64,000 nt of DNA from Terriglobia bacterium (lineage in GTDB: Bacteria; Acidobacteriota; Terriglobia; JAIQFV01), in the NCBI GenBank assembly GCA_020073085.1, contig JAIQFV010000002.1:376875-440874 (forward strand), given 5' to 3'. Shown here piece by piece: positions 16,874 through 59,961 of the stretch (positions are counted from its first letter, which is position 1; the number at the start of each line of letters is the position of its first letter). Both the position numbers and the translations under genes were made by a program. Below the pieces are notes generated by a model, which saw nothing but the letters and a program-made list of their open reading frames with translations, was not told where the DNA came from and did no database searches.

Positions 16874-16904
16874 TGTATTTGACGGGAAATTGGAACGGCC
16901 GGAG

Positions 16905-17105: not shown

Positions 17106-17124
17106 CATTAGAAACCTATCTCTT

Positions 17125-18069: not shown

Positions 18070-18106
18070 TCGCTATTGCTGACAACTGACAACTGACAAC
18101 CGGCAA
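18070..18106. repeat. single low-complexity arm (GACAACTGACAACTGACAAC), no clear partner
   Basis: CAGTTGTCAG-type motif directly downstream of the htpX stop. Confidence 0.5.
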
Positions 18107-24228: not shown

Positions 24229-24236
24229 GGGAAGCG

Positions 24237-32547: not shown

Positions 32548-32591
32548 TGTAGTGCCCCGATGTAGTGCCGATGTAGTGTCGATGTAGTGCC
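32546..32591. repeat. 4 x 11-12 bp tandem repeat (GATGTAGTGCC) overlapping the nrdJ stop codon
   Basis: gatgtagtgcccc gatgtagtgcc gatgtagtgtc gatgtagtgcc. Confidence 0.7.
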
Positions 32592-32604
32592 GACTTCAGT
32601 CGGC
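32589..32604 (+). terminator. short hairpin (GCCGAC-TTCA-GTCGGC) after nrdJ, possible terminator
   Basis: Perfect 6 bp stem with 4 nt loop followed by an AT-rich but not U-run sequence. Confidence 0.25.
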
Positions 32605-43484: not shown

Positions 43485-43489
43485 AAGCA

Positions 43490-43675
43490 AGTTGCCAGTT
43501 GCCAGTTTTCAGTTGTCAGTGGGAAGGTGCAAGAGTCGGCGGCCGGAAGACGGGAACCGGAAGCCAGAAGTCAGAGGTCAGAAACAAAAGGCGTGGAATT
43601 GTAGACTTTGAACTTTGAACCTGGAACTTTGAACCGGGGTTTCAGGACTTTGAACTTGAAACTTTGAACTGTTCT
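43490..43675. repeat. low-complexity intergenic block (GTTGCCAGTT, GGAAG/CCAGAAG and CTTTGAAC motif runs)
   Basis: Three different simple-motif runs fill the gap between convergent stops; arms are not clearly complementary. Confidence 0.6.
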
Positions 43676-45567: not shown

Positions 45568-48500
45568 TCATGCCTGTTTCTTCCGATGTCGGGTGAGTGG
45601 CAGCGGATTCGGCGGGCTGGGAGTGCCACTGTCCAGAATTTCGCGAACCTTGCGTACGAGAGTATCCGGCGTGAACGGCTTTTCAAGGAAGTGCGTGGAC
45701 GAATCGAGGATGGAATGGTGACCGATGACATCATCCGTGTAACCGGACATGAACAGCACTTTCAGGTCCGGACGGCGCGAGTGGAGGAGTTTGACTAGTT
45801 CAGGGCCATTCATCTCCGGCATGACCACATCGCTGAGGATCATTTGAATCGGGACCGGGCTTTGTTCACAGAGTTCAACGGCTTCCTTGGAGTTGCGGGC
45901 TTCCTGGACGGTATAACCATTCATCTCCAAGGTCTCACGCACCAGGGCACGGACCCCCACTTCGTCCTCAACCAGAAGGATGGTCTCGGAGCCCCGCCGC
46001 GGGAAGGCAAGGGATTCCTGTTTAAGGGTCTCTGAGAGCGCTTCTTCAACGCGTGGCAGATAAATCTTGATGGTCGTGCCGCGCCCCGGCTCGCTGTACA
46101 CACGCACATTGCCGGCACTTTGTTTGATGATTCCAAACACCGTGGAAAGTCCGAGGCCGGTCCCTTTCCCGCGCTCTTTGGTCGTAAAGAACGGCTCAAA
46201 GATGCGATCCTGTGTTTCCTTGTTCATTCCCGTCCCGGTATCACTCACCGCCAGCATCACGTAGGGGCCCGGATGGTAGGCCAGATGCCGGTGAGCAAAG
46301 CTCTCTTCAAGCTCGACGTTCCGGGTTTCGATGATTAACCTCCCGCCCTGGGGCATGGCGTCGCGCGCATTTACTACCAGGTTCATGATCACCTGTTCCA
46401 ACTGCCCGGCATCGGCCTTCACGCGGCCCAGGGCGGGGTCGAGGTGGGCGACCAACTTAATGTCCTCCCCGACCAGCCGATGCAGCATCCCTTTCATTCC
46501 CTCTGCGATCGCGTTCAAATCCAGGATGGTCGGCTTGAGAACCTGTTTCCGGCTGAAGGTGAGCAGTTGCCGCGTCAGGGCCGTGGCGCGGTCAGCGGCT
46601 TTCTTGATCTCATCCAGGCTTCGACGGTGAGGGTCTTCCTCGGGGAACTGCATCGCAAGCAGGTTGGAGTACCCTGCAATGGTCGTGAGGATATTGTTAA
46701 AGTCGTGGGCCAAGCCTCCGGCCAGTCTGCCCACCGCTTCCATCTTTTTCGAATGTTGAAGTTCCTCTTCGAGGGCGCGACGCTCGGTCACGTCGCGGGC
46801 GATGACCTGAACCCCGATGGTCTCTTTGCCGTGGTGAATGGGACGGCTGCTGATTTCCAGTTTGATCCGACGCCCGCCCTTCGCGATGACGTCCAGTTCC
46901 TGCGTGCGGGCGGAGCCCTCCGCGGATTCCTGTTCGAGGATGTGGCGGGCGACCTCCGCGCTTTCCGGATCGACCAACTGGGCAATGTTCAAGGTGCGAA
47001 GGGCCTCCTGCCGGGTGTATCCGAATATATTTTCACCGGCCTTGTTCAAGGAAATGAAGCGGCCCTTCAAATCGGCCGTGAAAATGATATCGTTGGCATT
47101 CTCAAATAGCTCACGGTAGCGAAGGGCGCTTTCGGTGAGCGCCTCTTCGGCCTGACGTCTCTTGCTGATGTCCTCCACCACGCTGATAAAGTGCCTGGGC
47201 TCCCCTGAGGAATCCCGCCGCAAGGAGACCGTCATATGCACCCAGATTGTGGAACCATCCTTGCGGCGATAGCGCTTTCCTGCGCTGTAGGACGGGATCT
47301 CCCTCATCAGGAGTTGCCGGCGGGCCGCAAGGTCGGCCTCAACCTCTTCGGGGTAAGAAATATCCTGGAACCGCATCGAGAGTATCTCATCCCGGGTATA
47401 CCCGAGGATGTCGCAGAGGCGTCGGTTCACCACCAGAAATTTGCCGTCCATCCCGGTATGGGTGATGCCGACCGGCGCTTCGTCGAAGGTCGCCAGGTAA
47501 AGTTCTTCGCTTTCACGCAGCGCTTCCTCCGCACGCTTGCGCTCGGTCACGTCTGCAAGCGTCCCGGAGACGCCGATGATCTTATTTGTTGGGTCGACCA
47601 TGGGCCGGGCATGAGTTTCGATCCACTTAAACGCTCCACCGCGAGTCAGGTATCGGACTTCACAACGGCAATCCTCCCCGGGATGTTCAAAGAGGGTCTG
47701 AAATTTCTCTGTAATGTAATTTCGGTCTCCGGGATGAACATAGTCCAGGAGATGCTTCCCCAGGCTCTCTTCCACCGTGAAACCGGTAATCTCCGCCCAT
47801 GCCGGATTCAAAATGACCCATCGACGACTGGGATCGACCTGGAAGATCACCTCTCTCACACTATCGACGAGCAGCCGATACCTTTGCTCGCTGTCCTGCA
47901 GGTCGCGGGAGGCGGTAGAGCGGGAGGCTTCGAAGTGTCGGTTCAGAGTCTCCAGTTCAGCCATCCGCGCTTCCAAGTCCTGGTTGAGTGTCTGGATTGT
48001 TTCATCGGCTCGCTTTCGCTCGGTCATATCCCGGGTCACTTTGGAGAACCCTCGCAACCTTCCCTGTCGGTCGCGCAAGGCGGTAATGACCACATCGGCC
48101 CAGAACTCCGATCCATCCTTCCTGACCCGCCATCCTTCGTCTTCGAGCCAGCCTTCCCGGGCGGCGGTTCGAAGCTGCAGCTGTGGCTTGCCGGCTCGAA
48201 CGTCTGCCTCGGTGTAAAAACACGAAAAGTTGCGCCCGATGATCTCTTCCGCCCCGTATCCCTTGATGTGCTCTGCGCCCGGGTTCCAGCTGGTGACATT
48301 CCCCGTTCGATCCAGCATGAAGATGGCATAATCCCTGACGCTCTCAACGAGCAAACGAAAACGCTCTTCGCTCGTCTGTAACGACCTGGTCTTGAGGGCC
48401 AGGCCAGAATCAGAACGGGGTTTACCCTGGGTTTGAAGATCACCCTGATACGCTCTCCTGCGGGATCTTCCTGTGCTTTTCCCGCCTTCCTTTCGCAGGA

Positions 48501-48927
48501 CTTCACGAACAGCGGAAGAGACCTTCTTCACACTGGATATAAGGGTCGCGTCAGGTACACCCGGGCCCTTCATCCTCCTGCGCGCTTCTTTGCGGTGGGG
48601 GTCGGTAATGAGGATCCAGGGGATATCGGTTTTCTCTGACGGGATAATTCGAGCAGCGTGGGCTGCTACGGACGGGGGTCTCTTCTCCATGGCCAGAATG
48701 ATGTTGGGGGCGAAGTCTTTGATATGCTTGGCGAAAGCCCGCTCACTTCTGACCCGCTTCGCCGTGAAATCGATCCGGGCGCGGCGCAGTTGGCGCTCGA
48801 TCAACTCCGCATCAGTCGGGCTGGTCCGAACCAGGAGAATCCGCGCTTCGTGGTTCATCGGCGAACCTTCCACTTTCCCCGTCATAGGCCGCGAAATGAC
48901 GGGTGTGCCCAGGACTTGCAGCGGCAA
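45568..48927 (-). CDS. hybrid sensor histidine kinase with multiple PAS domains and C-terminal receiver domain
   Basis: Repeated PAS modules, HisKA phosphoacceptor His (LAHDFNN), HATPase_c motifs, C-terminal receiver (LLVEDE...D...K); start uncertain (48927, 48885 or 48858). Confidence 0.85.
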   Translation of the reverse strand: MPLQVLGTPVISRPMTGKVEGSPMNHEARILLVRTSPTDAELIERQLRRARIDFTAKRVRSERAFAKHIKDFAPNIILAMEKRPPSVAAHAARIIPSEKTDIPWILITDPHRKEARRRMKGPGVPDATLISSVKKVSSAVREVLRKEGGKSTGRSRRRAYQGDLQTQGKPRSDSGLALKTRSLQTSEERFRLLVESVRDYAIFMLDRTGNVTSWNPGAEHIKGYGAEEIIGRNFSCFYTEADVRAGKPQLQLRTAAREGWLEDEGWRVRKDGSEFWADVVITALRDRQGRLRGFSKVTRDMTERKRADETIQTLNQDLEARMAELETLNRHFEASRSTASRDLQDSEQRYRLLVDSVREVIFQVDPSRRWVILNPAWAEITGFTVEESLGKHLLDYVHPGDRNYITEKFQTLFEHPGEDCRCEVRYLTRGGAFKWIETHARPMVDPTNKIIGVSGTLADVTERKRAEEALRESEELYLATFDEAPVGITHTGMDGKFLVVNRRLCDILGYTRDEILSMRFQDISYPEEVEADLAARRQLLMREIPSYSAGKRYRRKDGSTIWVHMTVSLRRDSSGEPRHFISVVEDISKRRQAEEALTESALRYRELFENANDIIFTADLKGRFISLNKAGENIFGYTRQEALRTLNIAQLVDPESAEVARHILEQESAEGSARTQELDVIAKGGRRIKLEISSRPIHHGKETIGVQVIARDVTERRALEEELQHSKKMEAVGRLAGGLAHDFNNILTTIAGYSNLLAMQFPEEDPHRRSLDEIKKAADRATALTRQLLTFSRKQVLKPTILDLNAIAEGMKGMLHRLVGEDIKLVAHLDPALGRVKADAGQLEQVIMNLVVNARDAMPQGGRLIIETRNVELEESFAHRHLAYHPGPYVMLAVSDTGTGMNKETQDRIFEPFFTTKERGKGTGLGLSTVFGIIKQSAGNVRVYSEPGRGTTIKIYLPRVEEALSETLKQESLAFPRRGSETILLVEDEVGVRALVRETLEMNGYTVQEARNSKEAVELCEQSPVPIQMILSDVVMPEMNGPELVKLLHSRRPDLKVLFMSGYTDDVIGHHSILDSSTHFLEKPFTPDTLVRKVREILDSGTPSPPNPLPLTRHRKKQA

Positions 48928-49273: not shown

Positions 49274-50509
49274 TTAATCCAGGACCAGCACGGCCATCTT
49301 GCCGTCGGTGATGAGTTTGTCGCCCGTGGCGTTACTGCTCTCCTTGGGAACGGCCGGCCGATCAACCAGGAAGTAGCTCTTGGCCTTGCCGGAAAGAAGC
49401 AGATCGTACATCACCTTGGAGCGCTCGCGGTCAATTTGGGAATCGATCTTGTGGATGAAAGTTCTGTTTTCGGGTGAAAACTCGATGGCGATATCATGGG
49501 TGGCGGCACAAACCCAGACCCCTTTTCCTTCAAAAGTATCGGGACGCCTCCAGATGCGGAGATGGTGGCGTTTGGAGAAGGTGTTGTTTTGCTTTTGAAA
49601 GACCAGGTCGGGCTTATTTCCATCGAGCAAGAGGATGGACATCGGGGCTTCTTTGTACCCCCGGTTTTCGACGACCGCACGGACTGTTTCCAGACCCGAT
49701 TGGGAATTCAAAGCGGCGGCAGCGACCCACCCCGCCGCTGTGAAGGCTGCTTCGACTTGCTCCTGGGATCCCACGTACATCAGGTTCGTCATGTCCGAGG
49801 GTTTGGGCGGTTTTTCCGCGATCGTTTGAAACGGCTCAGCATTGACGAGCCTGGTGAGTTGAGGATCAGGGGAGCCGGAACCGTCCTTGTAGCCACCCGT
49901 TGCCCCTGCCAGACCGCTCAAATCCGGCTTGTCGAGGATCTGCAGCGTCATCTCTACGCCCGGTGAATAATCGATCTCCGGCTGCGGCTCCTTGATAATG
50001 GCTCCCTTTGCGGCAGTCAAGATATCGGCCAGTCCCGCCAATTTACCGCCCATCTTTCCCAAGCCTTCATCCATTCTTGAAGCCAGGGTTTCTGAGGCAA
50101 GAATGCCTACAATCCCTCCCTTGTCATCGACGGTCTCCCGGGCGTTATCCACGCCAACGACCTTAGTTGTCAGCTTAATCTTCTTGCCGCTCGACACTTC
50201 CAGTTGGTTGAAATCCAGGAGCAGGTATGCGCGTTGATCGGCTTTCCCGTCGGTCGACTTGACCTCTTTGATCTTTCCGTACAACTTCGTGCCCGGCGGG
50301 ATGACAGATTTGGTTCCCATCCGGACCGGGGCGAGAACGACCCCCTCGACGCTGTCTCCAGCCTTGGAGCTATTGCTGGCGACCTTCGAGGCGAGTCGAA
50401 TGTCCATTTCCGTCTTGGACGAAGGCTTGATAACGATGGGCAGTGTCAGGGTAGAAGACACCGCAAGAATGAACCCAGCGGCGAGAAGTCTTCGAATAAG
50501 CATAAGCAT
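49274..50509 (-). CDS. secreted protein with LssY-C-terminal-like domain
   Basis: Signal peptide; C-terminal region with conserved HH...W...HDI...HKID motifs reminiscent of the LssY C-terminal family. Confidence 0.35.
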   Translation of the reverse strand: MLMLIRRLLAAGFILAVSSTLTLPIVIKPSSKTEMDIRLASKVASNSSKAGDSVEGVVLAPVRMGTKSVIPPGTKLYGKIKEVKSTDGKADQRAYLLLDFNQLEVSSGKKIKLTTKVVGVDNARETVDDKGGIVGILASETLASRMDEGLGKMGGKLAGLADILTAAKGAIIKEPQPEIDYSPGVEMTLQILDKPDLSGLAGATGGYKDGSGSPDPQLTRLVNAEPFQTIAEKPPKPSDMTNLMYVGSQEQVEAAFTAAGWVAAAALNSQSGLETVRAVVENRGYKEAPMSILLLDGNKPDLVFQKQNNTFSKRHHLRIWRRPDTFEGKGVWVCAATHDIAIEFSPENRTFIHKIDSQIDRERSKVMYDLLLSGKAKSYFLVDRPAVPKESSNATGDKLITDGKMAVLVLD

Positions 50510-50556
50510 CCACTCTACTCGGAGTTCCGACTTTAACGATCAATAATCTTACCCAA

Positions 50557-50780
50557 CAAGTCTTAAAATCCAAAATCCAAATTCCAAAATCCAAACAAAA
50601 CCCAAAAAGAACAAATTCCAAGAGGCAGAAGACCGACAATCCAGTGAGGGCATTAACGGAAAAATGCCGCTTCACCTGTTGTCACGGTTTTGTGCTGTTC
50701 CGTCTAAGATTTGTTATTTGGGGTTTGAGAACTTGCTGGGCAATTAATACTTGTTTGGAATTTGGTATTTGGATTTTCCG
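50557..50780. repeat. bipartite intergenic element (AAATCCAAAATCC / TTTGGAATTTGG flavour)
   Basis: Left arm cttaaaatccaaaatccaaattccaaaatccaaac pairs with right arm ttgtttggaatttggtatttggattttcc. Confidence 0.7.
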
Positions 50781-50822: not shown

Positions 50823-51662
50823 TCAAACGGTTTTTGCCGGTGCCGCCGGAATGTTCGGCAGCGGCTTTCCCTGGCCCGGCCCGTGCAATTTCTGGCACGG
50901 TTTTTTGCGGCGTGCGAGGTGAAGGTAATCCAGCACGAGCTGGCGCTTCAGATACTGAATGGCCTTGGCGGGATCGACTCCCTTGGGGCACGCGCGGGAG
51001 CACTCGCCGGCATAGTGACAGCGGAAGGCGCCGTGTGAGGTACCCGTGAACTCGTTGCGGTCGCGCCGGCCCTCATCGCGGGTATCCTTGTCGTATCGCT
51101 CTGCCGCAGCCAGAGGCATGGGTCCCAAATACCGCGCGTCGGTGGCGAGGGTGGGGCAGGCGGCCATGCAGCAGCCACACTTGATACAGTAGGCGAATTG
51201 AAGATAGGCCTCAAGCTCCTCGGGGGACTGGTAGAACTCCCCCTCCGCGGTATTGATCTCGGCTTCATCGGCGCGCACGATAAAAGGTTTTATGGAACGG
51301 TGTTTATCAAACATCGTCATCAGATCGGGGACCAGGTCGCGGATGATTTCGAAGTTGGGCAGGGGCCCCACGGTCAGATCCGTGTTGGCGATGTGCAGGA
51401 TCTGGGTGTTGCAGGCGAGCGTCGGCCGGCCGTTCAGAAGCATGCCACAGGAACCGCAGACCCCCATGCGGCACGAATAGCGCCAGGCCAGGGTGGGATC
51501 CACATTCTCCTTGATGTAGTGCAATCCGTCCAGCACCGTCATCCCTTCGCGGACCGGGATCCGGTACGACTTCACGTAGGGGGTTCGATCGGTTTCAGGA
51601 TTGAATCGCGTGACGTGGAAATTGATCTCTCTGGTGGTCTTGTTGTTTTCCGGCATGGTCAT
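50823..51662 (-). CDS. sdhB: succinate dehydrogenase / fumarate reductase iron-sulfur subunit
   Basis: 2Fe-2S (CRMGVCGSCG), 4Fe-4S (CIKCGCCMAACP) and 3Fe-4S (CHYAGECSRACP) cysteine clusters. Confidence 0.9.
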   Translation of the reverse strand: MTMPENNKTTREINFHVTRFNPETDRTPYVKSYRIPVREGMTVLDGLHYIKENVDPTLAWRYSCRMGVCGSCGMLLNGRPTLACNTQILHIANTDLTVGPLPNFEIIRDLVPDLMTMFDKHRSIKPFIVRADEAEINTAEGEFYQSPEELEAYLQFAYCIKCGCCMAACPTLATDARYLGPMPLAAAERYDKDTRDEGRRDRNEFTGTSHGAFRCHYAGECSRACPKGVDPAKAIQYLKRQLVLDYLHLARRKKPCQKLHGPGQGKPLPNIPAAPAKTV

Positions 51663-52042
51663 CCCCTTCCTCCCGCGATCGCGATGGCATGTGTTGCAAT
51701 GGCCGCCCAAGTGCCCAGGCCGAACAGTCCCAGCCCCACCACCAGAAGCACAAAGGTGATGGCCTTTTCGACGGCGGGCTTCAGCGTCAGCTCAAACAGG
51801 ATGGTCCGCAGCCCGTAAAGGCCATGGTAGAGCGCCACGCCGAGGAGAAGAATGTAAGTGACTGTAAAGAAGATCCGGCCGTCACGATAGAGGCTGTTTT
51901 CTTTGGAAATGGCCTCGCCGCTATTAGGAGCAAAGAGGTGAGTGATACCCCCCACGTGCATGATGAGCATGTGAAGGCCGAGCAGGAAAAGGATGACCAC
52001 TCCCGCCGTCATGTGCCAGGTCCAATATTTTGTTTCGTGCAT
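51659..52042 (-). CDS. sdhD: succinate dehydrogenase hydrophobic membrane anchor subunit (SdhD-like)
   Basis: Small three-TM protein with conserved His, between sdhC and sdhB; 4 nt overlap with the sdhB start. Confidence 0.55.
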   Translation of the reverse strand: MHETKYWTWHMTAGVVILFLLGLHMLIMHVGGITHLFAPNSGEAISKENSLYRDGRIFFTVTYILLLGVALYHGLYGLRTILFELTLKPAVEKAITFVLLVVGLGLFGLGTWAAIATHAIAIAGGRG

Positions 52043-52050
52043 TTCTCCTC

Positions 52051-52488
52051 CTACTTTCCCAATCCTAGGAATTCAGAGCCGCCCGCAGCGAGAAGAATCG
52101 CTGCCAGGATCATCATGACGATCAGCAGGGGCCGCTGGACGTTCAATGAGGTCTTGTAGGGATAAATCGGTTCGATAGGTTTGCCTACGGCAAATCCAAG
52201 TTCCACCAGCACCAGGCGGACACCGTTCAGGGCGTGATACGCAAAAGCGGCGAAAACCAGGAACTCCCCGAATTTGAAGATGGGCTGGTGGAAGAATCCC
52301 CCTTCGACCCAGAGGTACTGGCCGGTGGCGCGCAGGCTGGTCACTACAACGTGCATCAGAAAGTATAAGAGAATGGCCAGTCCGGTGAGGCGATGCAGGA
52401 TATAAGCGTAGCGCTCAATGCCCCAGCGCCCGCCCCCGAGCCATCCCCATACCCCGAGGCGATTGTCGTGTCTCTTGATTTCGGCCAT
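52051..52488 (-). CDS. sdhC: succinate dehydrogenase cytochrome b subunit (SdhC-like)
   Basis: Three TM helices with haem-ligand His context (HRLTG...H...NG); AGGAGG ribosome-binding site. Confidence 0.6.
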   Translation of the reverse strand: MAEIKRHDNRLGVWGWLGGGRWGIERYAYILHRLTGLAILLYFLMHVVVTSLRATGQYLWVEGGFFHQPIFKFGEFLVFAAFAYHALNGVRLVLVELGFAVGKPIEPIYPYKTSLNVQRPLLIVMMILAAILLAAGGSEFLGLGK

Positions 52489-52510
52489 GCCAGCCTCCTT
52501 GAGTCGAATT

Positions 52511-52735
52511 CAGGTAATAGGGGATAGGTTTTAGGTGATAGGGAACAGGTTCCAGGCAATAGGGAAACAAGACGAGCGATCAATCCTCGGGACCAATAAC
52601 TCAGCCCGAACGATCAGTCGACGGCACATCTCTTGCATCGTTCCCCCAAGCCACCCCTGCCACCGATCATCAATTACCTACTACCTATTCCCTACTACCT
52701 ACCACCTATTTCCTATCACCTACTACCCATCCCTA
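52511..52735. repeat. bipartite intergenic element (GGTAATAGG / AATAGG flavour) between sdhA and sdhC
   Basis: Left arm ggtaataggggataggttttaggtgatagggaacagg pairs with right arm cctactacctattccctactacctaccacctatttcctatcacc. Confidence 0.75.
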
Positions 52736-54448
52736 ATACTTCCTCTCCACCGGTTTCCAGTTGGTAATCGTCACGGGCTTGTATTCCAGCCGCGGCTTAC
52801 CACCGGTGCAATACACCATGGAATGTGCCAGGAACTTTTCATCATCACGCTTCGAGAAATCCGTCCGGGAATGGGCCCCGCGGGATTCCTGGCGTGCCTG
52901 ACCGGCGAAGAGCAGCACCTCCGCCAACTCGAGCATGTTTTCAGTTTCCAATGCCTGGATGAGGTTGGTGTTGTAGATGCGGGTCTTGTCCTGGATGGAA
53001 ATCTTTCGAAAGCGTTGCCTCAGATCGGCAATCTTGTCCAGGCCTTCCTTCATGGAGTCGCCGGTGCGGTAAACCCCGGCGTGCTTGTCCATCAGTGTCC
53101 GAAGTTCACGGCGGATGAGGGCCGGGTTCTCCGTTCCACTTTGTTTGAGCAGACCATCAAAAACGCGGCTCTCTTCTTCCCGGACTTTGGCCTCCGGCAT
53201 CGCACTCAGCGTGGTGCCTTTGGTCAGGAACTTTGATATTTCACCTCCGGTAATGCCGCCCCACACAAGGCATTCGGCCGTGGAATTGCATCCCAGACGG
53301 TTGGCGCCGTGCATGGAGTGGCACGCCACCTCCCCGGCCGCCCAGATGTTCTCCACCTTGGTCTGGCCGTTGATGTCGGCCTCGATCCCTCCCATGGCAT
53401 AGTGGGCCACGGGCCGGATCGGGATGGGCTGAGTGATGGGGTCGATTCCCAGAAATTTCATACACACTTCACGGATCAGCGGGAGGCGGTGGTTGATGCG
53501 GTCGGCGCCAAGGTGGGTCATATCGAGGTTAATATAATCGAGCCCCTCGGGTCCCGGAAAACCGCGTCCCTCGAGAATTTCCGTCATCTCCGATCGCGAC
53601 ACGATATCGCGGGGCGCCAGTTCCATCATCTTGGGCGCATACTTTTCCATAAACCGCTCACCCTTGTTGTTGCGCAGGTAGCCGCCTTCCCCGCGACACC
53701 CCTCCGTCATCAGGATGCCCGAGGGCACCAATCCGGTCGGGTGAAACTGCAGAAACTCCGGATCTTCCAGGGGCAGGCCGGCGCGGAAGGCGATGGCCTG
53801 TCCGTCACCCGTGACGGTTTGGGAATAGGTCGTGAACCCATAGAGGTTCCCCAGGCCTCCGGAAGCGAACAGGAGCGCCTTTCCGCGCAAAACGTAGAAC
53901 TCACCGGTCGGGGCATCGAAAAGCGTGAGGCCGGCAAACCGACCGCCCTCGAGGAGCATCGCCGTGACGAAACACTCGTCGTAGCGCTTGAAGTTGTTGT
54001 ACTTGACCAGGGTGTCATAGAGGGCCTGCATTTCCATGAAGCCGGTCTTGTCGGCGGCCATGCAAGCGCGCGGGAAAGAATGCCCGCCAAACGGACGCTG
54101 CATGATCCGCCCGTCGTCGCGGCGTGACCAGGGGACCCCCCAATGCTCCAGGCGCCGGATCTCATCCGGCGAAGTCCTGACAAACCGATCCACCGTGTCC
54201 TGGTCCGCCAGGAAATCGGCGCCTTTGACCGTGTCCCAGGCGTGCAGCTCGAGGCTGTCTCCTTCCTCGGGGCGCATCATCGCAGCGGTGCCCCCTTCGG
54301 CACACACCGAATGCGAGCGCATGATCTGGACCTTCGACACGATTCCGATGTCGGCTTTGCCCTGCGTTCGAATGCAGATTTCCACGGCGGCGCGCAGTCC
54401 GGCCAGCCCGGTGCCCAGGATTAGTACATCATGAGTTATTTGTTGCAT
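52733..54448 (-). CDS. sdhA: succinate dehydrogenase / fumarate reductase flavoprotein subunit
   Basis: FAD-binding GxGxxG ([14 protein letters not shown]), covalent-FAD His region ([10 protein letters not shown]), conserved catalytic blocks. Confidence 0.95.
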
Positions 54449-54597
54449 GCTCCATTGACTCCTTGGAATAGCGGAGGGAGGGTCCTTCAGGGTCTGCGGG
54501 TATGAAGTGAAGCCTCCTCGTTAATGCGCGATCTGCGTACGCAGTGCGCGCCCTCAATTGCCGGATATCATATCACAAGTTTTTGTTTTCGGAAGAG

Positions 54598-54815
54598 TCC
54601 AATAAAACAAATTCCAGAATCCAATATCCAAAGTCCAAATAAAAACCAAATTCCAATGCACAAACTCCAAGGGAAGCCGATTCGCAATGCTTATATTTCG
54701 GTTCCCTTAAGGGCTTCACAGATGGTGGCCGGTCGTACCCATTCCTTCGTTTTAAGTGTTTTGAATTTGGTCCTTGGAATTTATTTGGACTTTGGATATT
54801 GGATTTTGGAATTTC
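54598..54815. repeat. bipartite intergenic element (TCCAATATCCAAAG / TTTGGATATTGGA flavour)
   Basis: Left arm tccaataaaacaaattccagaatccaatatccaaagtccaaataaa pairs with right arm ttatttggactttggatattggattttggaatttcc; immediately followed by the tandem array. Confidence 0.75.
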
Positions 54816-55250
54816 CACCGATGGGATGTTCAAAATTCAGACTGAAGGTGGCGGGTTTGGAATTTGTTTATTGGGATTTGGTTCTTATTTGGGTTTTGGA
54901 GTTTGGAATTTGGATTTTCCGCCAATGGGATGTTCAAAATTCAGACTGAAGGTGGCGGGTTTGGAATTTGCTTATTGGGATTTGGTTCTTATTTGGATTT
55001 TGGAGTTTGGAATTTGGATTTTCCGCCGATGGGATGTTCAAAGTTTGGACTGAAGGTGGCGGGTTTGGAATTTGCTTGCTGGAATTTGGATTTTGGAGTT
55101 TGGAATTTGGATTTTCCGCCGATGGGATGTTCAAAATTCAGACTGAAGGTGGCGGGTTTGGAATTTGCTTGCTGGAATTTGGATTTTGGAGTTTGGAATT
55201 TGGATTTTCCGCCGATGGGATGTTCAAAATTCAGACTGAAGGTGGCGGGT
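54816..55250. repeat. tandem array: five copies of a 36 bp core at 93-104 bp spacing
   Basis: Core GATGGGATGTTCAAAATTCAGACTGAAGGTGGCGGG recurs at about 54820, 54924, 55028, 55121 and 55214; inter-core sequence is low-complexity TTTGGAATTTGG...GGATTTTCC and nearly identical between units. Confidence 0.85.
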
Positions 55251-55257: not shown

Positions 55258-56031
55258 TCAGGGTAGCTGTTGCTTCAAGGCGGCAATGAAATCACCCAAC
55301 TCTTTAGGGTTGAGATCGGAGACTGCCCAGTAAGTCATTTTTGACTTCGCCCAGTGGACCACATGGTAACCCTTTTGTGAGAGGGCTGTTTCGGTCGCGT
55401 TCGCATCCTCGGGCGACGGCCAAATGAACAAATTGATAAAATGTTGCCGTCGCTGATAGATTAGGGCAGCCACCGGTTTTCCGCCGAGGTAGTCGATGCG
55501 GCCTCCGATGAGGCGAAATCCGTGGTCTGCCAGGTCGACGACGGTGGGTGAGAAATCAACCTTTCCGTTGAACCAGGGCTTCACCGTATGCTGATCGGAG
55601 GAGGGCACATCGGTCAAATGGCTGAGCATCAGCGAACGAACATGGCTGTCGATGATCTCCTGGGTCAGGATCTCGTCAGCGGACTGTCTGGAAAAGTGCG
55701 GCGCCACATTCCATGTGATTAATGCAACCAGCACGAGAGAGGCCGCCACACTCGCCCACCGCAGGGGCGACCACCCTCCCGACAGCCATACGCGGCGCCC
55801 TGAAGGCGATTTGCCACGGATTGTATCCTGAACGCGGTGATGCAGGGTGCCGGGTGCCTTGAAGTAAAGGGAATTGGAGCCGAGCACGGACCGCAATTCT
55901 TGCAGTTTCTGGTATTCGGTGGAACACGCCGAACACTCTTGAAGGTGCGCCTCGACCTCAACACTTCTGACGAGGTCAAGTTCGCCGTCAAGATAGCCCT
56001 CGAGGAGGGGTTGTACTTCCTTGCAGCTCAA
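55258..56031 (-). CDS. anti-sigma factor (zinc-finger type, transmembrane)
   Basis: N-terminal HxxxCxxC zinc-binding anti-sigma motif (VEVEAHLQECSACS), TM helix, periplasmic domain; directly follows the ECF sigma gene. Confidence 0.7.
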   Translation of the reverse strand: MSCKEVQPLLEGYLDGELDLVRSVEVEAHLQECSACSTEYQKLQELRSVLGSNSLYFKAPGTLHHRVQDTIRGKSPSGRRVWLSGGWSPLRWASVAASLVLVALITWNVAPHFSRQSADEILTQEIIDSHVRSLMLSHLTDVPSSDQHTVKPWFNGKVDFSPTVVDLADHGFRLIGGRIDYLGGKPVAALIYQRRQHFINLFIWPSPEDANATETALSQKGYHVVHWAKSKMTYWAVSDLNPKELGDFIAALKQQLP

Positions 56032-56032
56032 A

Positions 56033-56554
56033 TCACGACTCCTTCTTCATCGCTTTGAGGAGGTTTTGACGGAGCCGTTTGCGGGCCCGCGCCAGGCTTG
56101 ACATGACGGTCCCGATGGGAACTCCCGCTATATCGGAAATCTCCTTGTAGGACAATCCTTCCAACTCACGCAAAACCAGGATCTCTCGAAAGGTCACCGG
56201 CAATTCTTCCATCGCCTGCTGAAGCATCCGACCATCGGCATTCGCCAGGAGCGGCTTTTCCGGGCTGAAGACCTGAGCATCACTGGTGTGCACCTCTTCG
56301 TCAAAGACGGTTTCCAATTCCTGCCTCCGGTTCCTTTGCAGCCATGAATAGCAGGTATTCCGCACTATCGTGAGCAGCCAGGAACGGCTGTCCCCGCCCT
56401 TGAATCCCCCAAAAAACCGGAATGCACGTAGGTACGATTCCTGCACGAGGTCTTCCGCATCATGCCCGTTGCGGGTTAACCATCGGGCGAGGTTGTGAGC
56501 GGCATCCAGGTGCGGCAAAAACATCTGCTCAAACCGCGCACTTGCCTCGTCCAT
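56033..56554 (-). CDS. ECF-family RNA polymerase sigma factor (sigma-70 group 4)
   Basis: Region 2 (DLVQESYLRAFRFF) and region 4 helix-turn-helix (LSYKEISDIAGVPIGTVMSSLARAR). Confidence 0.9.
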   Translation of the reverse strand: MDEASARFEQMFLPHLDAAHNLARWLTRNGHDAEDLVQESYLRAFRFFGGFKGGDSRSWLLTIVRNTCYSWLQRNRRQELETVFDEEVHTSDAQVFSPEKPLLANADGRMLQQAMEELPVTFREILVLRELEGLSYKEISDIAGVPIGTVMSSLARARKRLRQNLLKAMKKES

Positions 56555-56725: not shown

Positions 56726-57727
56726 ATGAAATCATCACTGAATCGACGATCCTTTATGAAAGTGGCCGGCGCCTCCTTAGGGGTGGGGGCGATGTACCGG
56801 ATCGTTCCGACGTGGGGAAAAGACAAAGAGGGACAAGAGATGGCCCGATTGCTGGGGAAGGCCAATGGTGAATCGGTCTCCCCCTTTTCTTTTGTTCAAC
56901 TGAGCGATACCCATGTCGGGTTCAGCGGGCCTCCGGACCCGCTGGGCACGAAGGCCTTCGAACTCGCCGTTGAGAAAGTCAACCAGTTGCCTGAAAAGCC
57001 GGAGCTGGTTCTTTTCACCGGTGATTTGACTCACGACAGTGAGAATCCGGAAGAGCATGCGAACCGGATGAGGCTCTTTCAAAAGATCTCCAGCCGGCTG
57101 AACGTGGCCAAGATCAAACATGTGCCGGGCGAACATGACGCCGGACTCGATGGCGGCAAACTCTTCCACGAGTTCTTTGGCGAGAGCTCTTATTCCTTCG
57201 ATCATCGCGGCATCCACTTCATCGCGCTCGACAATGTTTCTCGCGCCAGGCCTGAAGTCGGGGAAGAGCAGCGGGCCTGGCTCAAGAAGGATGTGGCACG
57301 CTTTTCAAAGTCCTCCCCCATGGTGGTATTCACGCACCGCCCGCTGTTTGATTTGAAGCCGGAGTGGGAATGGTTCACGAGCGATGGGGATGAAGTCATG
57401 AATGTGCTGGCCCCTTATGAAAATGTCACGGTGCTGTATGGGCACATTCACCGTCAGAACAGTCAGAAGCTGGGCAATGCTACTCATTATGCGGCCCGGT
57501 CACTCATTTTTGCATTTCCCGATCCTGAAAGCGGCGCGGAGAAGAAGCCGATCCCTTTCGATAAGGATCAACCGTTCAAGAACCTGGGAATCCGGCAGAT
57601 CACGGGAAAACAGGACCAGGTTCCATCATCGGTTTCACTTTCCATCAATGACGTCGAGTTGAGCGTGCGTGAGTTCGCCGGCACGGCGGGTATTCAACAA
57701 TTCTCAAAAAAAGGAGTAAGTCTATGA
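56726..57727 (+). CDS. Tat-secreted metallophosphoesterase
   Basis: Twin-arginine signal (NRRSFMKVAGASLGVGA); calcineurin-like GDLTHD and GEHD motifs; AAAGGAG ribosome-binding site. Confidence 0.75.
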   Translation: MKSSLNRRSFMKVAGASLGVGAMYRIVPTWGKDKEGQEMARLLGKANGESVSPFSFVQLSDTHVGFSGPPDPLGTKAFELAVEKVNQLPEKPELVLFTGDLTHDSENPEEHANRMRLFQKISSRLNVAKIKHVPGEHDAGLDGGKLFHEFFGESSYSFDHRGIHFIALDNVSRARPEVGEEQRAWLKKDVARFSKSSPMVVFTHRPLFDLKPEWEWFTSDGDEVMNVLAPYENVTVLYGHIHRQNSQKLGNATHYAARSLIFAFPDPESGAEKKPIPFDKDQPFKNLGIRQITGKQDQVPSSVSLSINDVELSVREFAGTAGIQQFSKKGVSL

Positions 57728-58089
57728 AAAGCTTTCTGAAGTCACCCTTGTCTTTATTGGTCGCGGCAGGAATGATCCTGTCAGGTACAGTCCGCACCCA
57801 GGCCACCGACACCCCGCGGGAGGTGGTCATCACAGCGAAACGGTTCGAGTTCTCACCCAAGCAAATTACGCTAAAAAAGGGCGAAACCGTGACCTTGAAG
57901 TTGACCAGCGAAGATGTCACCCACGGATTCTTTGTCAGGCCCCTGAAGATCGACACGGAGATTGTCCCCGGAAAAACCACAGAGGTCACCATCACGCCCC
58001 AGGCAACAGGCAAGTTCACAACCATTTGTGACCACTTTTGTGGAGTCGGTCACGGCAACATGATGATGACCATCGTCGTGGAGGAGTAA
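57724..58089 (+). CDS. cupredoxin-like copper-binding protein
   Basis: Signal peptide; type-1 copper ligands (H...CDHFCGVGHGNM); 4 nt overlap with the upstream gene. Confidence 0.7.
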   Translation: MKSFLKSPLSLLVAAGMILSGTVRTQATDTPREVVITAKRFEFSPKQITLKKGETVTLKLTSEDVTHGFFVRPLKIDTEIVPGKTTEVTITPQATGKFTTICDHFCGVGHGNMMMTIVVEE

Positions 58090-58310: not shown

Positions 58311-58325
58311 ACCCAGTATTTTCCT

Positions 58326-58440
58326 GGATTGGAAATTGGAAAGGTCTGACCCGAGAATTGGGATTGGAAATTGGAAAGGTCTGACCCGAGAATTCTTGCT
58401 GGATTGGAAATTGGAAAGGTCTGACCCGAGAATTCTTGTT
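58326..58440. repeat. 3 x about 40 bp tandem repeat (GGATTGGAAATTGGAAAGGTCTGACCCGAGAATTCTTGCT)
   Basis: Three near-identical units at about 58326, 58361 and 58401. Confidence 0.85.
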
Positions 58441-58575: not shown

Positions 58576-59823
58576 TCACTTGGTCGGCACCCAATTCTCC
58601 AGGAACCCTTTTCCTCCGGCTTTTTCCCGCTCTTCGACGAGAGCCTGAAAGATGGCGCGCAACTGGGCATAGGGCAGAGTTCCGATGATCATCCGGTTAT
58701 TGATGATCAGGGTAGGAGTGGAGCGGATGCCGTGTGCGTACTTTTCTGAGGTCTTTTCGTACTCGCTGCCGGTATTAGTAATCCGCTGGACGAGCTCCTT
58801 CGTCTTCGGGTCATTAAGTGCACCTTCGACCTGGTATCTCTTCGCCAGGGCAATTCGCCAGACCGGATCCTTGGCTTTTTCGAAATTCGCGAAGATCTCA
58901 TCATGGATTTGCGTAAACTTGGCCGGGTCGTAGGCCGCCAGGTAGGCGAGATCGCAGGCCCCCGGATGCTTGTCCTTCTCGACCACCTGGTTACACCGGG
59001 CCTCCAGCGGGAAGAACTGGTAGGCGACATTGATCTTCCCCTTGAATTCCTCCTTGAGCTTCCCCATCTGCTGCGTCAGAAAAAGACAGTCCGGGCAGAG
59101 AAAATCGGCGTACTCGATGATCTGGATGGGGGCGTCCTCAAACTTATCGGTCGACCGGATGGTTCGGTACGGTGAAATCAGGCTGGGGGACTTCACCACG
59201 GCCAGATTGTAGTATTGAGTCACCACCCGCGCGGCCACACCACCGGATTGCGCATCCCGCCGGGCATGATGAAAAAGAACCATCCCGTAAGCGCCGAGCA
59301 GCGTGACAATGGCAAACGTCGCCAGATGCTTCAGGGAGGGGCTGACATATCTCGAGATCCATCCTGGGCTCTCACGGTCGATTCCGTATCTCCAAAAAAG
59401 GGCGAAGCTGGCGATGGAGAAAAGATAGTAGCCGGTACACAGAAGACACAAGCTCTTGAGATAAAGGACCGAGAAGAGAAACAGCCCGGCCACACCTGCA
59501 AAATTGGCGATCGAAAGCGTCCTGTTGGTTCGTTCCAGATCGGCCGAGGGGAATACTGCTCCCAGGGAGACCAGGGCCCCGACGAGAAGACCAAAGTATC
59601 CCAGCGGGACGCCTCGCACTTGAGAGATGACTGAAAATGCGGAACTTTCGCAGTTAAAGAAGGAATTGATGTCACAAAACGAACCGGCATAGATGGAGGT
59701 CGGGTAGTTTGCCAGGAAGAAATGCCGGATCGTCAGGACAGAGAAAACCATCATTCCCAATCCGAAGAGAAAGCTTAGCATTCGAGACCAGGCCTTGCCA
59801 TTCAGGGTTAAGGATTCTTGCAT
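58576..59823 (-). CDS. vitamin K epoxide reductase (VKOR) family protein fused to a DsbA-like thioredoxin domain
   Basis: N-terminal multi-TM VKOR-like region with Cys pairs (CDINSFFNC, CLLC); C-terminal thioredoxin fold with CPDC active site. Confidence 0.7.
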   Translation of the reverse strand: MQESLTLNGKAWSRMLSFLFGLGMMVFSVLTIRHFFLANYPTSIYAGSFCDINSFFNCESSAFSVISQVRGVPLGYFGLLVGALVSLGAVFPSADLERTNRTLSIANFAGVAGLFLFSVLYLKSLCLLCTGYYLFSIASFALFWRYGIDRESPGWISRYVSPSLKHLATFAIVTLLGAYGMVLFHHARRDAQSGGVAARVVTQYYNLAVVKSPSLISPYRTIRSTDKFEDAPIQIIEYADFLCPDCLFLTQQMGKLKEEFKGKINVAYQFFPLEARCNQVVEKDKHPGACDLAYLAAYDPAKFTQIHDEIFANFEKAKDPVWRIALAKRYQVEGALNDPKTKELVQRITNTGSEYEKTSEKYAHGIRSTPTLIINNRMIIGTLPYAQLRAIFQALVEEREKAGGKGFLENWVPTK

Positions 59824-59961
59824 GTGGACCTGCCTGATGATGTTGGATTGGAACAACTTGGCAATGCCGAAGAGGCTTAGGAGAGGAGTTCCTAGATTCG
59901 TCCGGACCGCCGCGCTCGCTTACTGCGTTCAATCAGAAGATTGAATTTCATACACCCCCAT

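What the first reader, a model, noticed from the sequence alone, without database searches (positions are those of the whole stretch)
52489..52732. Bipartite element splits the succinate dehydrogenase cluster
Gene order on the minus strand is sdhA, then a 244 bp gap filled by a GGTAATAGG-flavour element, then sdhC-sdhD-sdhB, which are tightly packed or overlapping. This may divide the cluster into two transcription units or place a large RNA structure between the flavoprotein and membrane-anchor genes, affecting subunit stoichiometry. A second element plus the tandem array sits directly upstream of sdhA (54598-55250).
Basis: partly seen in the sequence, partly recalled or inferred. Interest (0 to 1): 0.5.

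Follow-up and report, generated by a model that had tools for sequence, protein, structure and literature searches.

The report
Heptamer-repeat hairpin inside sdh operon
The 244-bp gap between sdhA and sdhC of this soil acidobacterium holds a young non-coding hairpin built from two inverted runs of 7-base repeats, one of at least a dozen in the window; it most likely sits inside one sdhACDB transcript and does not cut the operon in two.

Summary
On the minus strand the order is sdhA, a 244-bp gap, then tightly packed sdhC-sdhD-sdhB. The gap holds two inverted arrays of degenerate heptamers (nnnTAGG / CCTAnnn on the mRNA strand) around a 97-nt unique centre.

This is one copy of a genome-wide class: 24 period-7 arrays in 64 kb against 0.03 expected. 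All 12 elements lie just 3' of a stop codon. Each has its own heptamer flavour and its own centre.

In 129 distinct acidobacterial sdhA-sdhC junctions the ancestral spacer is 12-20 nt. The window's lineage filled it with heptamer hairpins of many flavours, some nested, some carrying toxin-antitoxin genes.

Arms match within a locus (median 19/21) but not between loci (12/21).

The element has no promoter-like or terminator-like signal, and the sdhC ribosome-binding site lies outside the hairpin. The mRNA strand folds at -104 kcal/mol (z -5.5). The centre is more conserved against the nearest relative (90%) than synonymous sites (73%).

Best reading: a heptameric simple-sequence quasi-palindrome, as known from Xanthomonas and cyanobacteria, transcribed within one operon, with a possible intercistronic RNA role. 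That role is inferred, not shown.

The parts
52733..54448 (-). sdhA (571 aa), succinate dehydrogenase flavoprotein. Its stop codon TAG (52733-52735) together with the preceding codon forms the first heptamer-like unit, TATTAGG.
   Evidence: Pfam FAD_binding_2 6.7e-98 and Succ_DH_flav_C 3.1e-44; stop-codon context
52673..52739 (-). 5' arm on the mRNA strand: about 8 degenerate heptamers nnnTAGG (TAGTAGG, TGATAGG, AAATAGG ...), starting at the sdhA stop codon.
   Evidence: TRF period 7/14/21 at 52673-52739; inverted repeats I1-I3
52565..52661 (-). Unique 97-nt centre, the apex of the hairpin. It forms two small stem-loops. It is 90% identical to L001, against 73% at four-fold degenerate sites.
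52512..52566 (-). 3' arm on the mRNA strand: about 8 degenerate heptamers CCTAnnn, complementary to the 5' arm.
   Evidence: TRF at 52512-52566; inverted repeats; fold
52494..52500 (-). Shine-Dalgarno AAGGAGG of sdhC, 5 nt before the ATG. It lies outside the hairpin and is identical to that of the compact ancestral spacers.
52051..52488 (-). sdhC (145 aa), membrane-anchor / cytochrome b subunit.
   Evidence: Pfam Sdh_cyt 5.1e-12
51659..52042 (-). sdhD-like second membrane-anchor subunit (127 aa).
   Evidence: Pfam Sdh_cyt 9.4e-5, below the curated cutoff; conserved position in 120+ loci
50823..51662 (-). sdhB iron-sulfur subunit (279 aa by public gene calls; the longest ORF runs to 51710).
   Evidence: Pfam Fer2_3 9.4e-35; gene calls
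54604..54821 (.). Second bipartite element upstream of sdhA: arms AAATTCC.. at 54604-54646 and ..TTTGGAT at 54779-54821, mirrored unit by unit (21/21).
54885..55250 (.). 93-nt tandem array x3.8. Each unit is a heptamer arm plus a CCGCC...GGCGG stem-loop. Copy number differs between assemblies.
   Evidence: TRF score 558
50556..50780 (.). Third bipartite element, downstream of sdhB (AAAATCC / TTTGGAA arms).
54449..54580 (-). Conserved 5' region of sdhA (93-95% identical to L001). It is the likely promoter/leader of the operon and contains the palindrome CTGCGTACGCAG.

Best explanation
The gap is filled by a lineage-specific, non-coding quasi-palindrome made of heptameric simple-sequence repeats. 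Two inverted arrays of degenerate 7-nt units surround a unique 97-nt centre.

Origin. It arose in a spacer that was ancestrally 12-20 nt, starting at the sdhA stop codon. The arrays gain and lose 7-nt units, as expected for replication slippage. The two arms are kept complementary, by intra-hairpin template switching, by selection, or by both (inferred).

Effect. The element carries no promoter or terminator signal and leaves the sdhC ribosome-binding site free. sdhACDB therefore most likely stays one transcript in which the element folds into a long imperfect hairpin of about 89 predicted pairs. Its probable effect is post-transcriptional. It could be a barrier to 3'-exonucleolytic decay, or a double-strand-specific (RNase III-type) processing site that uncouples the stability of the sdhA part from the sdhCDB part. 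REP/BIME elements and phage T7 intercistronic hairpins work this way.

Shown: anatomy, family, evolutionary history, absence of canonical signals, and constraint on the centre. Inferred: co-transcription and any RNA-level effect.
For: Period-7 arrays are very strongly over-represented and period-specific (24 against 0.03).

Twelve bipartite elements lie in the window, all directly 3' of a stop codon: 8 between co-directional genes, 4 between convergent genes, none in a clearly divergent spacer.

The centres are unique. No copy occurs elsewhere in 1.5 Mb of related DNA.

Among 129 distinct junctions, compact spacers dominate in distant relatives (7 of 11 at SdhA identity of 80% or less). Heptamer fillings dominate near the window (26 of 33 above 88%).

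Arms are complementary within a locus (median 19/21) but not between loci (12/21; p=6e-11), across at least 7 flavours. The window and L001 (nnnTAGG/CCTAnnn) and L002 and L003 (GTGTCGG/CCTGACA) share boundaries but have switched flavour on both arms.

There is no promoter-like or terminator-like site in 52489-52732, and the sdhC ribosome-binding site is conserved and unpaired.

Sense fold: -104 kcal/mol, z -5.5.

The centre is 89.9% identical to L001, against 72.8% at 573 four-fold sites (p=2.6e-5), and against 58-77% in two other spacers (49259-48841 and 50764-50519).

The sense consensus fold has 35 pairs at -28.4 kcal/mol, and all 6 one-sided changes keep the pair. The antisense fold has 23 pairs at -16.3 kcal/mol.

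Precedent: inverted pairs of GGGAATC heptamer arrays in Xanthomonas, placed close behind the upstream ORF and mostly between co-oriented genes (PMC4692102).
Against: No transcript data exist, so co-transcription, hairpin formation in vivo and any processing are all inferred.

Across 32 non-redundant junction elements, the apparent preference for the sense strand (25 of 32 more stable) disappears after correction for base composition (z-scores: 14 of 32, p=0.19). The class as a whole therefore shows no RNA-specific signal.

Several relatives' spacers fold no better than shuffles (z about -1), and some have non-complementary arms (L026, L033).

Constraint on the centre rests on one pair of genomes. 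It could instead reflect a recent local recombination event.

The centres of the two neighbouring elements evolve about neutrally (73-84%).
Confidence: 0.55

Rival explanations
1. Purely neutral or selfish DNA. The heptamer quasi-palindrome is a by-product of slippage and template switching. It accumulates wherever it does no harm, that is, in 3' flanks and operon spacers that keep their ribosome-binding site. It has no effect on sdh expression.
For: Flavour, length and centre turn over quickly between close relatives. The same junction tolerates anything from 12 nt to 4.4 kb, including toxin-antitoxin genes. There is no class-wide strand-specific folding signal once composition is corrected. 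The centres of the neighbouring elements diverge about neutrally.
Against: The centre of this element is much more conserved than synonymous sites (p=2.6e-5). All one-sided substitutions in predicted stems keep pairing on the sense strand only. Arm complementarity is maintained across flavour switches, although template switching alone could do that.
Confidence: 0.3
2. The element splits the cluster into two transcription units: it terminates the sdhA transcript and supplies, or precedes, an internal promoter for sdhCDB.
For: A 244-nt untranslated gap holding a very stable hairpin could stall RNA polymerase. Relatives with kilobase inserts suggest that sdhCDB can be expressed at a distance from sdhA. 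Promoter consensus sequences in Acidobacteriota are poorly known.
Against: No T-run follows the hairpin, and no sigma-70-like hexamer pair was found (0 found; shuffles give 2.7). The candidate -35/-10 seen by eye is not conserved in L001. All inserted genes in relatives lie on the same strand, as expected for read-through. The ancestral state is a translationally close-packed operon.
Confidence: 0.08
3. A mobile non-autonomous element (MITE or REPIN type) inserted by a transposase that recognises the heptamer arms.
For: The same few flavours (TCAGCnn, ATAGGnn, TCAGTTn, AAATCCA, CGATTGn, GAATAGT) recur at many loci and in many genomes. Hairpins are nested inside the loops of other hairpins (window 12518-12756, L003, L110). 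A gene sits inside the loop in L021.
Against: Centres are unique and no second copy of any element was found. No target-site duplication is visible at the junction. About 50 ORFs of the window were scanned (the PAS kinase at 45568-48927 and four ORFs beyond 60200 were not); none matched a family named as a transposase or as the tyrosine transposase that mobilises REP elements (RAYT), apart from sub-threshold IstB_IS21/TniB hits on the ClpB ATPase. The first array merges with the stop-codon context, and its flavour tracks the stop codon, which suggests local seeding.
Confidence: 0.1
4. The arrays are binding sites for a sequence-specific DNA- or RNA-binding protein, or they form G-quadruplexes. 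Either would regulate sdhC translation or transcription.
For: Heptamer repeats near start codons were proposed as regulator binding sites in Beggiatoaceae and Nostoc (PMC4679880; bioRxiv 10.1101/2022.06.06.494920). The sense 5' arm has a GG run every 7 nt.
Against: At least 7 unrelated flavours occupy the same junction in relatives, which argues against one specific binder. G runs are mostly only 2 long. The arrays abut stop codons rather than start codons.
Confidence: 0.04
5. The centre encodes a small protein: a 35-codon ORF from ATGCAAGAG... into the 3' arm, preceded by GGGGGA.
For: The ORF is open in the window and in L001, and its first 12 codons are identical (read from the sequences).
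Against: Of the 4 substitutions inside it, 3 are non-synonymous. It ends inside a repeat array whose length differs between the two genomes (35 against about 42 codons). Its start codon lies inside a predicted stem, and the spacing from the GGGGGA is short.
Confidence: 0.03

Closest known systems
Paired inverted heptameric repeats (GGGAATC)n of Xanthomonas campestris / X. axonopodis (Rehm et al. 2015, PLoS One, PMC4692102)
   Same: Both are tandem 7-nt units with some fixed and some free positions. Both are about 90% intergenic, lie close behind the upstream ORF, and occur mostly between co-oriented or convergent genes and rarely between divergent ones. Xanthomonas has 70-75 cases per genome of two arrays in inverted orientation that could form a stem-loop. 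In both, length varies between close relatives while the type is kept, and most arrays are transcribed.
   Different: Xanthomonas has one dominant G-rich flavour with G-quadruplex potential. Here at least 4 flavours occur in 64 kb and at least 7 in the clade, most of them not G4-prone. Also seen here: hairpins nested in hairpins, small genes inside the loops, flavour switches on both arms, and a different phylum (Acidobacteriota).
Cyanobacterial STRR heptamers and TAACTGA repeats (Mazel et al. 1990, from memory; MacGregor 2015, PMC4679880)
   Same: Both are families of intergenic tandem heptamers with several flavours per genome. The TCAGTTn flavour here is the complement of (T/C)AACTGA. Copy number changes in 7-nt steps between strains.
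   Different: TAACTGA repeats are mostly single direct arrays just upstream of start codons, with only one indirect repeat reported in the BOGUAY genome. Here the arrays start at stop codons and are mostly paired in inverted orientation. Acidobacteriota are not among the phyla that paper reports (Beggiatoaceae, one Chromatiaceae, Cyanobacteria, Bacteroidetes).
REP / BIME / REPIN elements of Enterobacteria and Pseudomonas (PMC3733652, PMC3116915, PMC3337134, listed; their properties as compared here are from memory)
   Same: Both are extragenic palindromes in 3' flanks and inside operons. Both are transcribed as part of mRNAs, and REP elements are known to protect upstream mRNA from 3' exonucleases (malE-malF, from memory). 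REPINs consist of two inverted units plus a spacer.
   Different: REPs are 20-40-nt conserved sequences with GTAG/CGTC tags and an associated tyrosine transposase (RAYT). Here the arms are repeat arrays of variable flavour, the spacers are unique, and no such transposase is seen in the window.
Intercistronic RNase III processing hairpins (phage T7 early mRNA, rRNA operon stems; from memory)
   Same: Both are long imperfect double-stranded stems between cistrons of a polycistronic RNA, with the downstream ribosome-binding site left free.
   Different: Those are conserved, specific structures with cleavage shown experimentally. Here cleavage is untested and the stem is a fast-evolving repeat.

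Membership tests
Heptameric simple-sequence repeats occurring as inverted pairs (Mrazek 2007 LSSR class; Rehm 2015) | Tandem head-to-tail units of 7 nt, at least 2-4 units, far beyond chance | tested here: met
   TRF period 7/14/21 on both arms; 24 arrays against 0.03 in shuffles, and other periods give 0-2
Heptameric simple-sequence repeats occurring as inverted pairs (Mrazek 2007 LSSR class; Rehm 2015) | Intergenic, close behind the upstream ORF, mainly between co-oriented or convergent genes | tested here: met
   All 12 window elements lie 3' of a stop codon. The arrays start at the sdhA stop codon. A crude count over 1.44 Mb gives 107 of 951 co-directional or convergent spacers against 12 of 270 divergent spacers, and several of those 12 are visibly ORF miscalls.
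Heptameric simple-sequence repeats occurring as inverted pairs (Mrazek 2007 LSSR class; Rehm 2015) | Two arrays on opposite strands close together, able to form a stem-loop | tested here: met
   Arms of 49-54 nt, 70-78% complementary; within-locus 19/21 against 12/21 between loci; fold z -5.5
Heptameric simple-sequence repeats occurring as inverted pairs (Mrazek 2007 LSSR class; Rehm 2015) | GGG tracts able to form G-quadruplexes (specific to the Xanthomonas/Nostoc subfamily) | tested here: not met
   Units are nnnTAGG with mostly GG runs. Other flavours in the window (TCAGCnn, TCAGTTn, AAATCCA) have no G tracts.
REP / REPIN | High-copy conserved 20-40-nt palindromic unit, with a conserved spacer within a REPIN family | tested here: not met
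   Centres are unique. Arms share only a flavour, not a fixed sequence.
REP / REPIN | Associated tyrosine transposase (RAYT) gene in the genome | not testable with these tools
   Only 64 kb of the genome is available. None was found among about 50 ORFs scanned with Pfam.
MITE | Terminal inverted repeats plus a target-site duplication, and multiple copies sharing internal sequence | tested here: not met
   No direct duplication at the boundaries when compared with empty sites (TGA/TAG | TGGAAGGAGGC). The internal sequence is unique.
Intrinsic (Rho-independent) terminator | Short GC-rich stem-loop followed by a T-run | tested here: not met
   No such site on either strand in 52489-52732. The hairpin is followed by GAAUUCGACUCAAGGAGG.
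Any curated RNA family (Rfam 15) | Covariance-model score at or above the gathering threshold | tested here: not met
   0 hits in the window at gathering thresholds. The only hit at E up to 10 is a plant miRNA-precursor model at 17 bits against a threshold of 90.
RNase III-type intercistronic processing site | Extended double-stranded RNA (about 20 bp or more) cleaved in vivo | not testable with these tools
   A stem of about 89 pairs is predicted, with 20 G-U pairs. Cleavage needs experiments.

The most novel reading that the evidence does not exclude
The heptamer arms are a disposable, fast-evolving double-stranded 'handle', and the loop they present is the functional slot. In the window's lineage the conserved 97-nt apex would be a structured RNA released from, or acting within, the sdhACDB transcript: an intra-operonic small RNA or regulatory domain matured by cleavage in the repeat stem. 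In relatives the same loops would serve as landing sites for toxin-antitoxin and other small gene cassettes. That would make these acidobacterial heptamer hairpins a general platform for inserting and expressing new RNA or gene modules inside operons.
Probability: 0.1. Interest if true: 0.75.

Novelty: new variant of a known kind. Interest (0 to 1): 0.42.

Why it matters
Heptameric tandem repeats are the most over-represented long simple repeats in bacteria. Their origin and role are still unexplained, and the published cases come from cyanobacteria, Beggiatoaceae, Bacteroidetes and Xanthomonas.

This locus shows the same kind of repeat in uncultured soil and peat Acidobacteriota, in a very informative setting. 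A universally conserved, ancestrally close-packed operon junction can be followed across more than 100 genomes. It moves from empty, to filled with hairpins of different flavours, to nested hairpins, to hairpins carrying toxin-antitoxin genes. That series gives a natural experiment on four questions: how such repeats are born (apparently seeded at the stop codon), how the two arms co-evolve, whether the loop acquires function, and how much untranslated structure an essential respiratory operon can tolerate.

For the sdh genes themselves the practical message is modest. The cluster is most likely still one operon.

Tried and rejected
1. Strand test. I asked whether the mRNA strand folds better than its complement across 32 non-redundant junction elements. 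Raw energies said yes (25 of 32, p=3e-4). Z-scores against shuffles said no (14 of 32, p=0.19). The raw effect is G+U-rich composition, so I dropped it as evidence for RNA-level selection.

2. Rfam, at gathering thresholds and at permissive E-values: nothing real.

3. Promoter and terminator consensus scan: nothing in the element.

4. Search for other copies of the centres (blastn, words of 7-9) in the window plus 170 loci (1.5 Mb): only orthologous positions.

5. Search for closer orthologues to obtain covariation. The metagenome scan with SdhC gave nothing closer than 92%. The exact-protein look-up gave only identical copies. Structure conservation therefore rests on the window and L001 only.

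6. Spacer-type enrichment with a home-made ORF caller. Several of the 'divergent' and 'coding' hits I inspected were visibly ORF miscalls, so I quote the numbers only as crude.

7. A sigma-70-like TTGATC-16-TATTGC seen by eye in the centre is not conserved in L001, so I rejected it.

8. Small-ORF reading of the centre: the substitution pattern is not protein-like.

9. Literature. No paper in the searchable library describes heptamer hairpins in Acidobacteria. The Elhai 2008 paper on small dispersed repeats in Nostoc was not among the results listed for that search.

Full report
**What is there.**
The minus strand carries sdhA (52733-54448), then a 244-nt gap (52489-52732), then sdhC (52051-52488), an sdhD-like gene (51659-52042) and sdhB (50823-51662/51710). 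Pfam supports all four. Public gene calls on identical contigs agree.

The gap is not random sequence. On the plus strand, 52512-52566 is a run of AGGTAAT-like heptamers and 52673-52739 a run of TACCTAC-like heptamers. The two runs are reverse complements of each other (49-54-nt arms, 70-78% complementary), about 107 nt apart.

Read on the mRNA strand, the element starts at the sdhA stop codon. The last sense codon plus the stop and the next base (TAT TAG G) already reads as a unit. About eight nnnTAGG units follow, then a non-repetitive centre, then about eight CCTAnnn units. It ends 11 nt before the sdhC Shine-Dalgarno AAGGAGG (52494-52500).

A third element follows sdhB (50556-50780). The spacer is identical in ten independent assemblies, so it is not an assembly artefact.

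**It is one of a class.**
With a simple lag-7 detector the window has 24 period-7 arrays. Shuffles give 0.03, and every other period from 4 to 12 gives 0-2. The arrays group into about 12 bipartite elements: 4431-4649, 10613-10799, 12518-12756 (nested, two flavours), 16899-17111, 18070-18115 (a single array), 19096-19272, 20680-20897, 24233-24420, 43480-43641, 50556-50780, 52505-52735 and 54604-54821.

- Each element has its own heptamer flavour: TCAGCnn, TCAGTTn, ATAGGnn or AAATCCA.
- Each has a centre found nowhere else in the window or in 1.5 Mb of related DNA, apart from orthologous sites.
- All lie directly behind a stop codon. Eight sit between co-directional genes and four between convergent genes.
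- The flanking genes are ordinary housekeeping genes (glpX, clpB, hsp20, a radical-SAM gene, an M48 peptidase and others).
- About 50 ORFs of the window were scanned with Pfam (the PAS kinase at 45568-48927 and four ORFs beyond 60200 were not). None matched a family named as a transposase, apart from sub-threshold IstB_IS21/TniB hits on the ClpB ATPase.

**Organism and history of the junction.**
SdhA places the window in Acidobacteriota. The best matches are MAGs labelled Terriglobia, with Bryobacterales and Solibacter further out. The gene order sdhA-C-D-B is conserved down to 73% SdhA identity.

I collected 129 distinct sdhA-sdhC spacers from 160 genome and metagenome loci.

| SdhA identity to window | Compact (30 nt or less) | With heptamer arrays | Other | Total |
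|---|---|---|---|---|
| 80% or less | 7 | 0 | 4 | 11 |
| 80-85% | 11 | 5 | 9 | 25 |
| 85-88% | 14 | 25 | 21 | 60 |
| above 88% | 1 | 26 | 6 | 33 |

Distant relatives and many nearer ones have 9-25 nt, typically TGGAAGGAGGCYGGC, so the compact state is ancestral.

The fillings differ between relatives:
- nnnTAGG in the window and L001
- GTGTCGG/CCTGACA in L002-L004 and L016
- CGATTGn/CAATCGn, GAATAGT/ATAATTC, AGCnnTC/GCTGAnn and GTTTCGA elsewhere
- single arrays (L011, L084)
- hairpins nested in hairpins (L003, L016, L110)
- spacers of 0.35-4.4 kb in which same-strand small genes sit between or beside the arrays

The inserted genes include ParE plus an antitoxin, HicA/HicB, Gp49-like plus an XRE-type HTH protein, a 23S-rRNA-IVS four-helix-bundle protein, a MacB/FtsX permease and a DUF4268/NucS-like protein. 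The sdhC-sdhD junction is also expanded in 36 of 122 loci. In every case the sdhC ribosome-binding site and start codon are retained.

**How the arms behave.**
For 29 non-redundant spacers with two or more arrays, the best 21-nt complementarity between the first and last array is a median 19/21 within a locus. Between loci it is 12/21 (Mann-Whitney p=6e-11). In some elements the arms mirror each other unit by unit, free positions included (54604-54821: 21/21).

The window and L001, and L002 and L003, share the left boundary (AAG TAT TAG G) and the right boundary (..CACCTATT.TC...AAGGAGGCTGGC). The flavour has nevertheless changed on both arms together. This is covariation at the level of whole arrays.

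The flavour of the first array goes with the stop codon it abuts: TAG with GTGnnGG/TAGG, TGA with TGATTGn. That fits local seeding, although shared ancestry could also produce it.

I read these facts as growth in place by 7-nt slippage. The arms would be kept alike by intra-hairpin template switching, the mechanism established for quasi-palindrome correction in E. coli (from memory), by selection for pairing, or by both. Recurrence of the same few flavours at many loci, together with nesting, keeps a transposition-like spread as a rival.

**Does it split the operon?**
The consensus scans find no sigma-70-like promoter and no stem-loop-plus-T-run in 52489-52732. The mRNA strand folds into one long imperfect hairpin. 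For the 244-nt gap: -104 kcal/mol, 89 pairs of which 20 are G-U, z -5.5. The complementary strand gives -69.9 kcal/mol, z -3.8. With the last 12 nt removed and mononucleotide shuffles, the z-scores are -7.8 and -4.9. The sdhC ribosome-binding site lies outside the stem.

Nothing therefore indicates termination or re-initiation, but consensus scans are weak evidence in this phylum. The likely operon promoter/leader is the block 54461-54580 just upstream of sdhA, which is 93-95% identical to L001.

**Is there function?**
Two results point in different directions.

(i) Class-wide test. Raw energies favour the sense strand in 25 of 32 non-redundant junction elements (p=3e-4). After normalising each strand to its own shuffles the effect vanishes (14 of 32, p=0.19). 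It comes from G+U-rich composition. Several relatives' spacers fold no better than chance. The class as a whole therefore gives no evidence for RNA-level selection.

(ii) This particular element looks constrained.
- Against L001 (SdhA 95%), four-fold degenerate sites in sdhACDB are 72.8% identical (n=573; 70-80% in the 300 nt flanking the spacer).
- Two other spacers (49259-48841 and 50764-50519) are 58-77% identical.
- The 97-nt centre (52565-52661) is 89.9% identical, gaps included (binomial p=2.6e-5).
- The consensus fold of the centre on the sense strand has 35 pairs at -28.4 kcal/mol, and all six one-sided substitutions keep the pair through G-U. The antisense consensus has 23 pairs at -16.3 kcal/mol.

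With only two sequences this is suggestive, not proof. A local recombination tract is an alternative, although flanking synonymous sites show no such tract. The centres of the upstream and downstream elements evolve about neutrally (73-84%).

**Mechanism I commit to.**
The element is a heptameric simple-sequence quasi-palindrome that colonised the sdhA 3' flank. It is transcribed as part of one sdhACDB mRNA and folds into a long stem with a structured apex. It acts, if at all, post-transcriptionally. It could be a 3'-exonuclease barrier that stabilises the sdhA segment, or a double-strand-specific cleavage site that uncouples the two halves, in the manner of REP/BIME elements and T7 intercistronic hairpins. 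My confidence is about 0.55 for the whole statement. It is much higher (above 0.85) for what the element is and how it arose than for any RNA effect. The main rival (0.3) is that it is harmless junk.

**Comparison with what is known.**
The closest description is the GGGAATC repeats of Xanthomonas. They are degenerate heptamers, about 90% intergenic, on average 28 nt behind the upstream ORF. They lie mostly between co-oriented genes and rarely between divergent ones. There are 70-75 inverted pairs per genome, and most are transcribed (PMC4692102).

Cyanobacterial STRR and the TAACTGA repeats of Beggiatoaceae, Cyanobacteria and Bacteroidetes are the same kind of sequence, but mostly single arrays upstream of start codons (PMC4679880). 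The TCAGTTn flavour here is the complement of that heptamer.

Membership in REP/REPIN, MITE, intrinsic terminators or any Rfam family was tested and not met.

New here are the phylum, the many flavours per genome, the nesting, the gene cassettes in or next to the loops, the documented flavour switch on both arms at one orthologous site, and a conserved apex. I rate it a new variant of a known kind, of moderate interest.

**Limits.**
There are no transcript data. Only 64 kb of the genome is available. Gene calls outside the sdh locus are my own crude ORF picks. Structure conservation rests on two genomes.

Noticed in passing
L005, L008, L018, L019, L021, L027, L037, L060, L078 and metagenome loci L081, L089, L098, L103, L105, L121-L123, L130, L132, L143, L149 (region between sdhA and sdhC): In relatives the sdhA-sdhC junction holds inserted same-strand genes. 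They include ParE toxin plus an antitoxin, HicA/HicB, Gp49(HigB)-like plus an XRE-type HTH protein, a 23S-rRNA-IVS four-helix-bundle protein sitting in the loop between CGATTGn arms (L021), a MacB/FtsX permease and a DUF4268/NucS-like protein. An essential respiratory operon junction acts as a landing pad for toxin-antitoxin modules.
   Followed up: partly
36 of 122 loci, e.g. L005, L008, L032, L060, L076, L106 (sdhC-sdhD junction): The sdhC-sdhD spacer, 8 nt in the window, is expanded to 53-2443 nt in many relatives. The colonisation is therefore not limited to one junction of the operon.
   Followed up: no
window 54885-55250, compared with L161:1530-1650 and L162:1393-1689: The 93-nt tandem array upstream of sdhA has about 4-5 copies in the window, 2 in L161 and 3 in L162, although the flanks are otherwise identical. 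L162 also joins different upstream genes (DinB, ABC ATPase). This is either real copy-number variation and rearrangement at the array, or short-read collapse and chimerism.
   Followed up: partly
window 54461-54580 (minus strand): A non-coding block just upstream of sdhA is 93-95% identical to L001, far above neutral. On the sense strand it holds a TGnTATGAT-like extended -10 (TGATATGAT) and a perfect 12-nt palindrome CTGCGTACGCAG. It is the likely sdh promoter plus an operator.
   Followed up: no
window 58324-58438: A 35-40-nt tandem repeat x3. Each unit contains ATTGGAA heptamers plus GGTCTGACCCGAGAATT. It lies between a cupredoxin/COX2-like gene (57724-58089) and a VKOR-DsbA fusion gene (58576-59856).
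   Followed up: no
window 32546-32593: An 11-nt tandem repeat GATGTAGTGCC x4.2 begins at the stop codon of the ribonucleotide reductase gene (30166-32547). It is the only array detected at period 11.
   Followed up: no
window 12518-12756; L003, L016, L110: Nested elements: outer arms of one heptamer flavour enclose inner arms of another (window: outer GTTCTCA/TGAGAAC, inner AGCTATC/GATAGCT). This implies either insertion into hairpin loops or stepwise growth from the loop outward.
   Followed up: partly
window and all loci L001-L080: The gene order sdhA-sdhC-sdhD-sdhB is conserved throughout these Acidobacteriota, down to 73% SdhA identity. It differs from the sdhCDAB order of E. coli (from memory).
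   Followed up: partly
L026, L033, L117, L120 (sdhA-sdhC spacers): Some spacers have a 5' array of one flavour (GAATAGT) and a 3' array of an unrelated flavour (GCTGACn) that cannot pair. They look like half-elements left by deletion or by recombination between different hairpins.
   Followed up: no
window 55258-56554: An ECF sigma factor (56033-56554) and a zf-HC2 anti-sigma factor (55258-56031) lie directly upstream of the sdh cluster on the same strand. An LssY_C-domain protein (49274-50509) and a large PAS sensor kinase (45568-48927) lie downstream.
   Followed up: no
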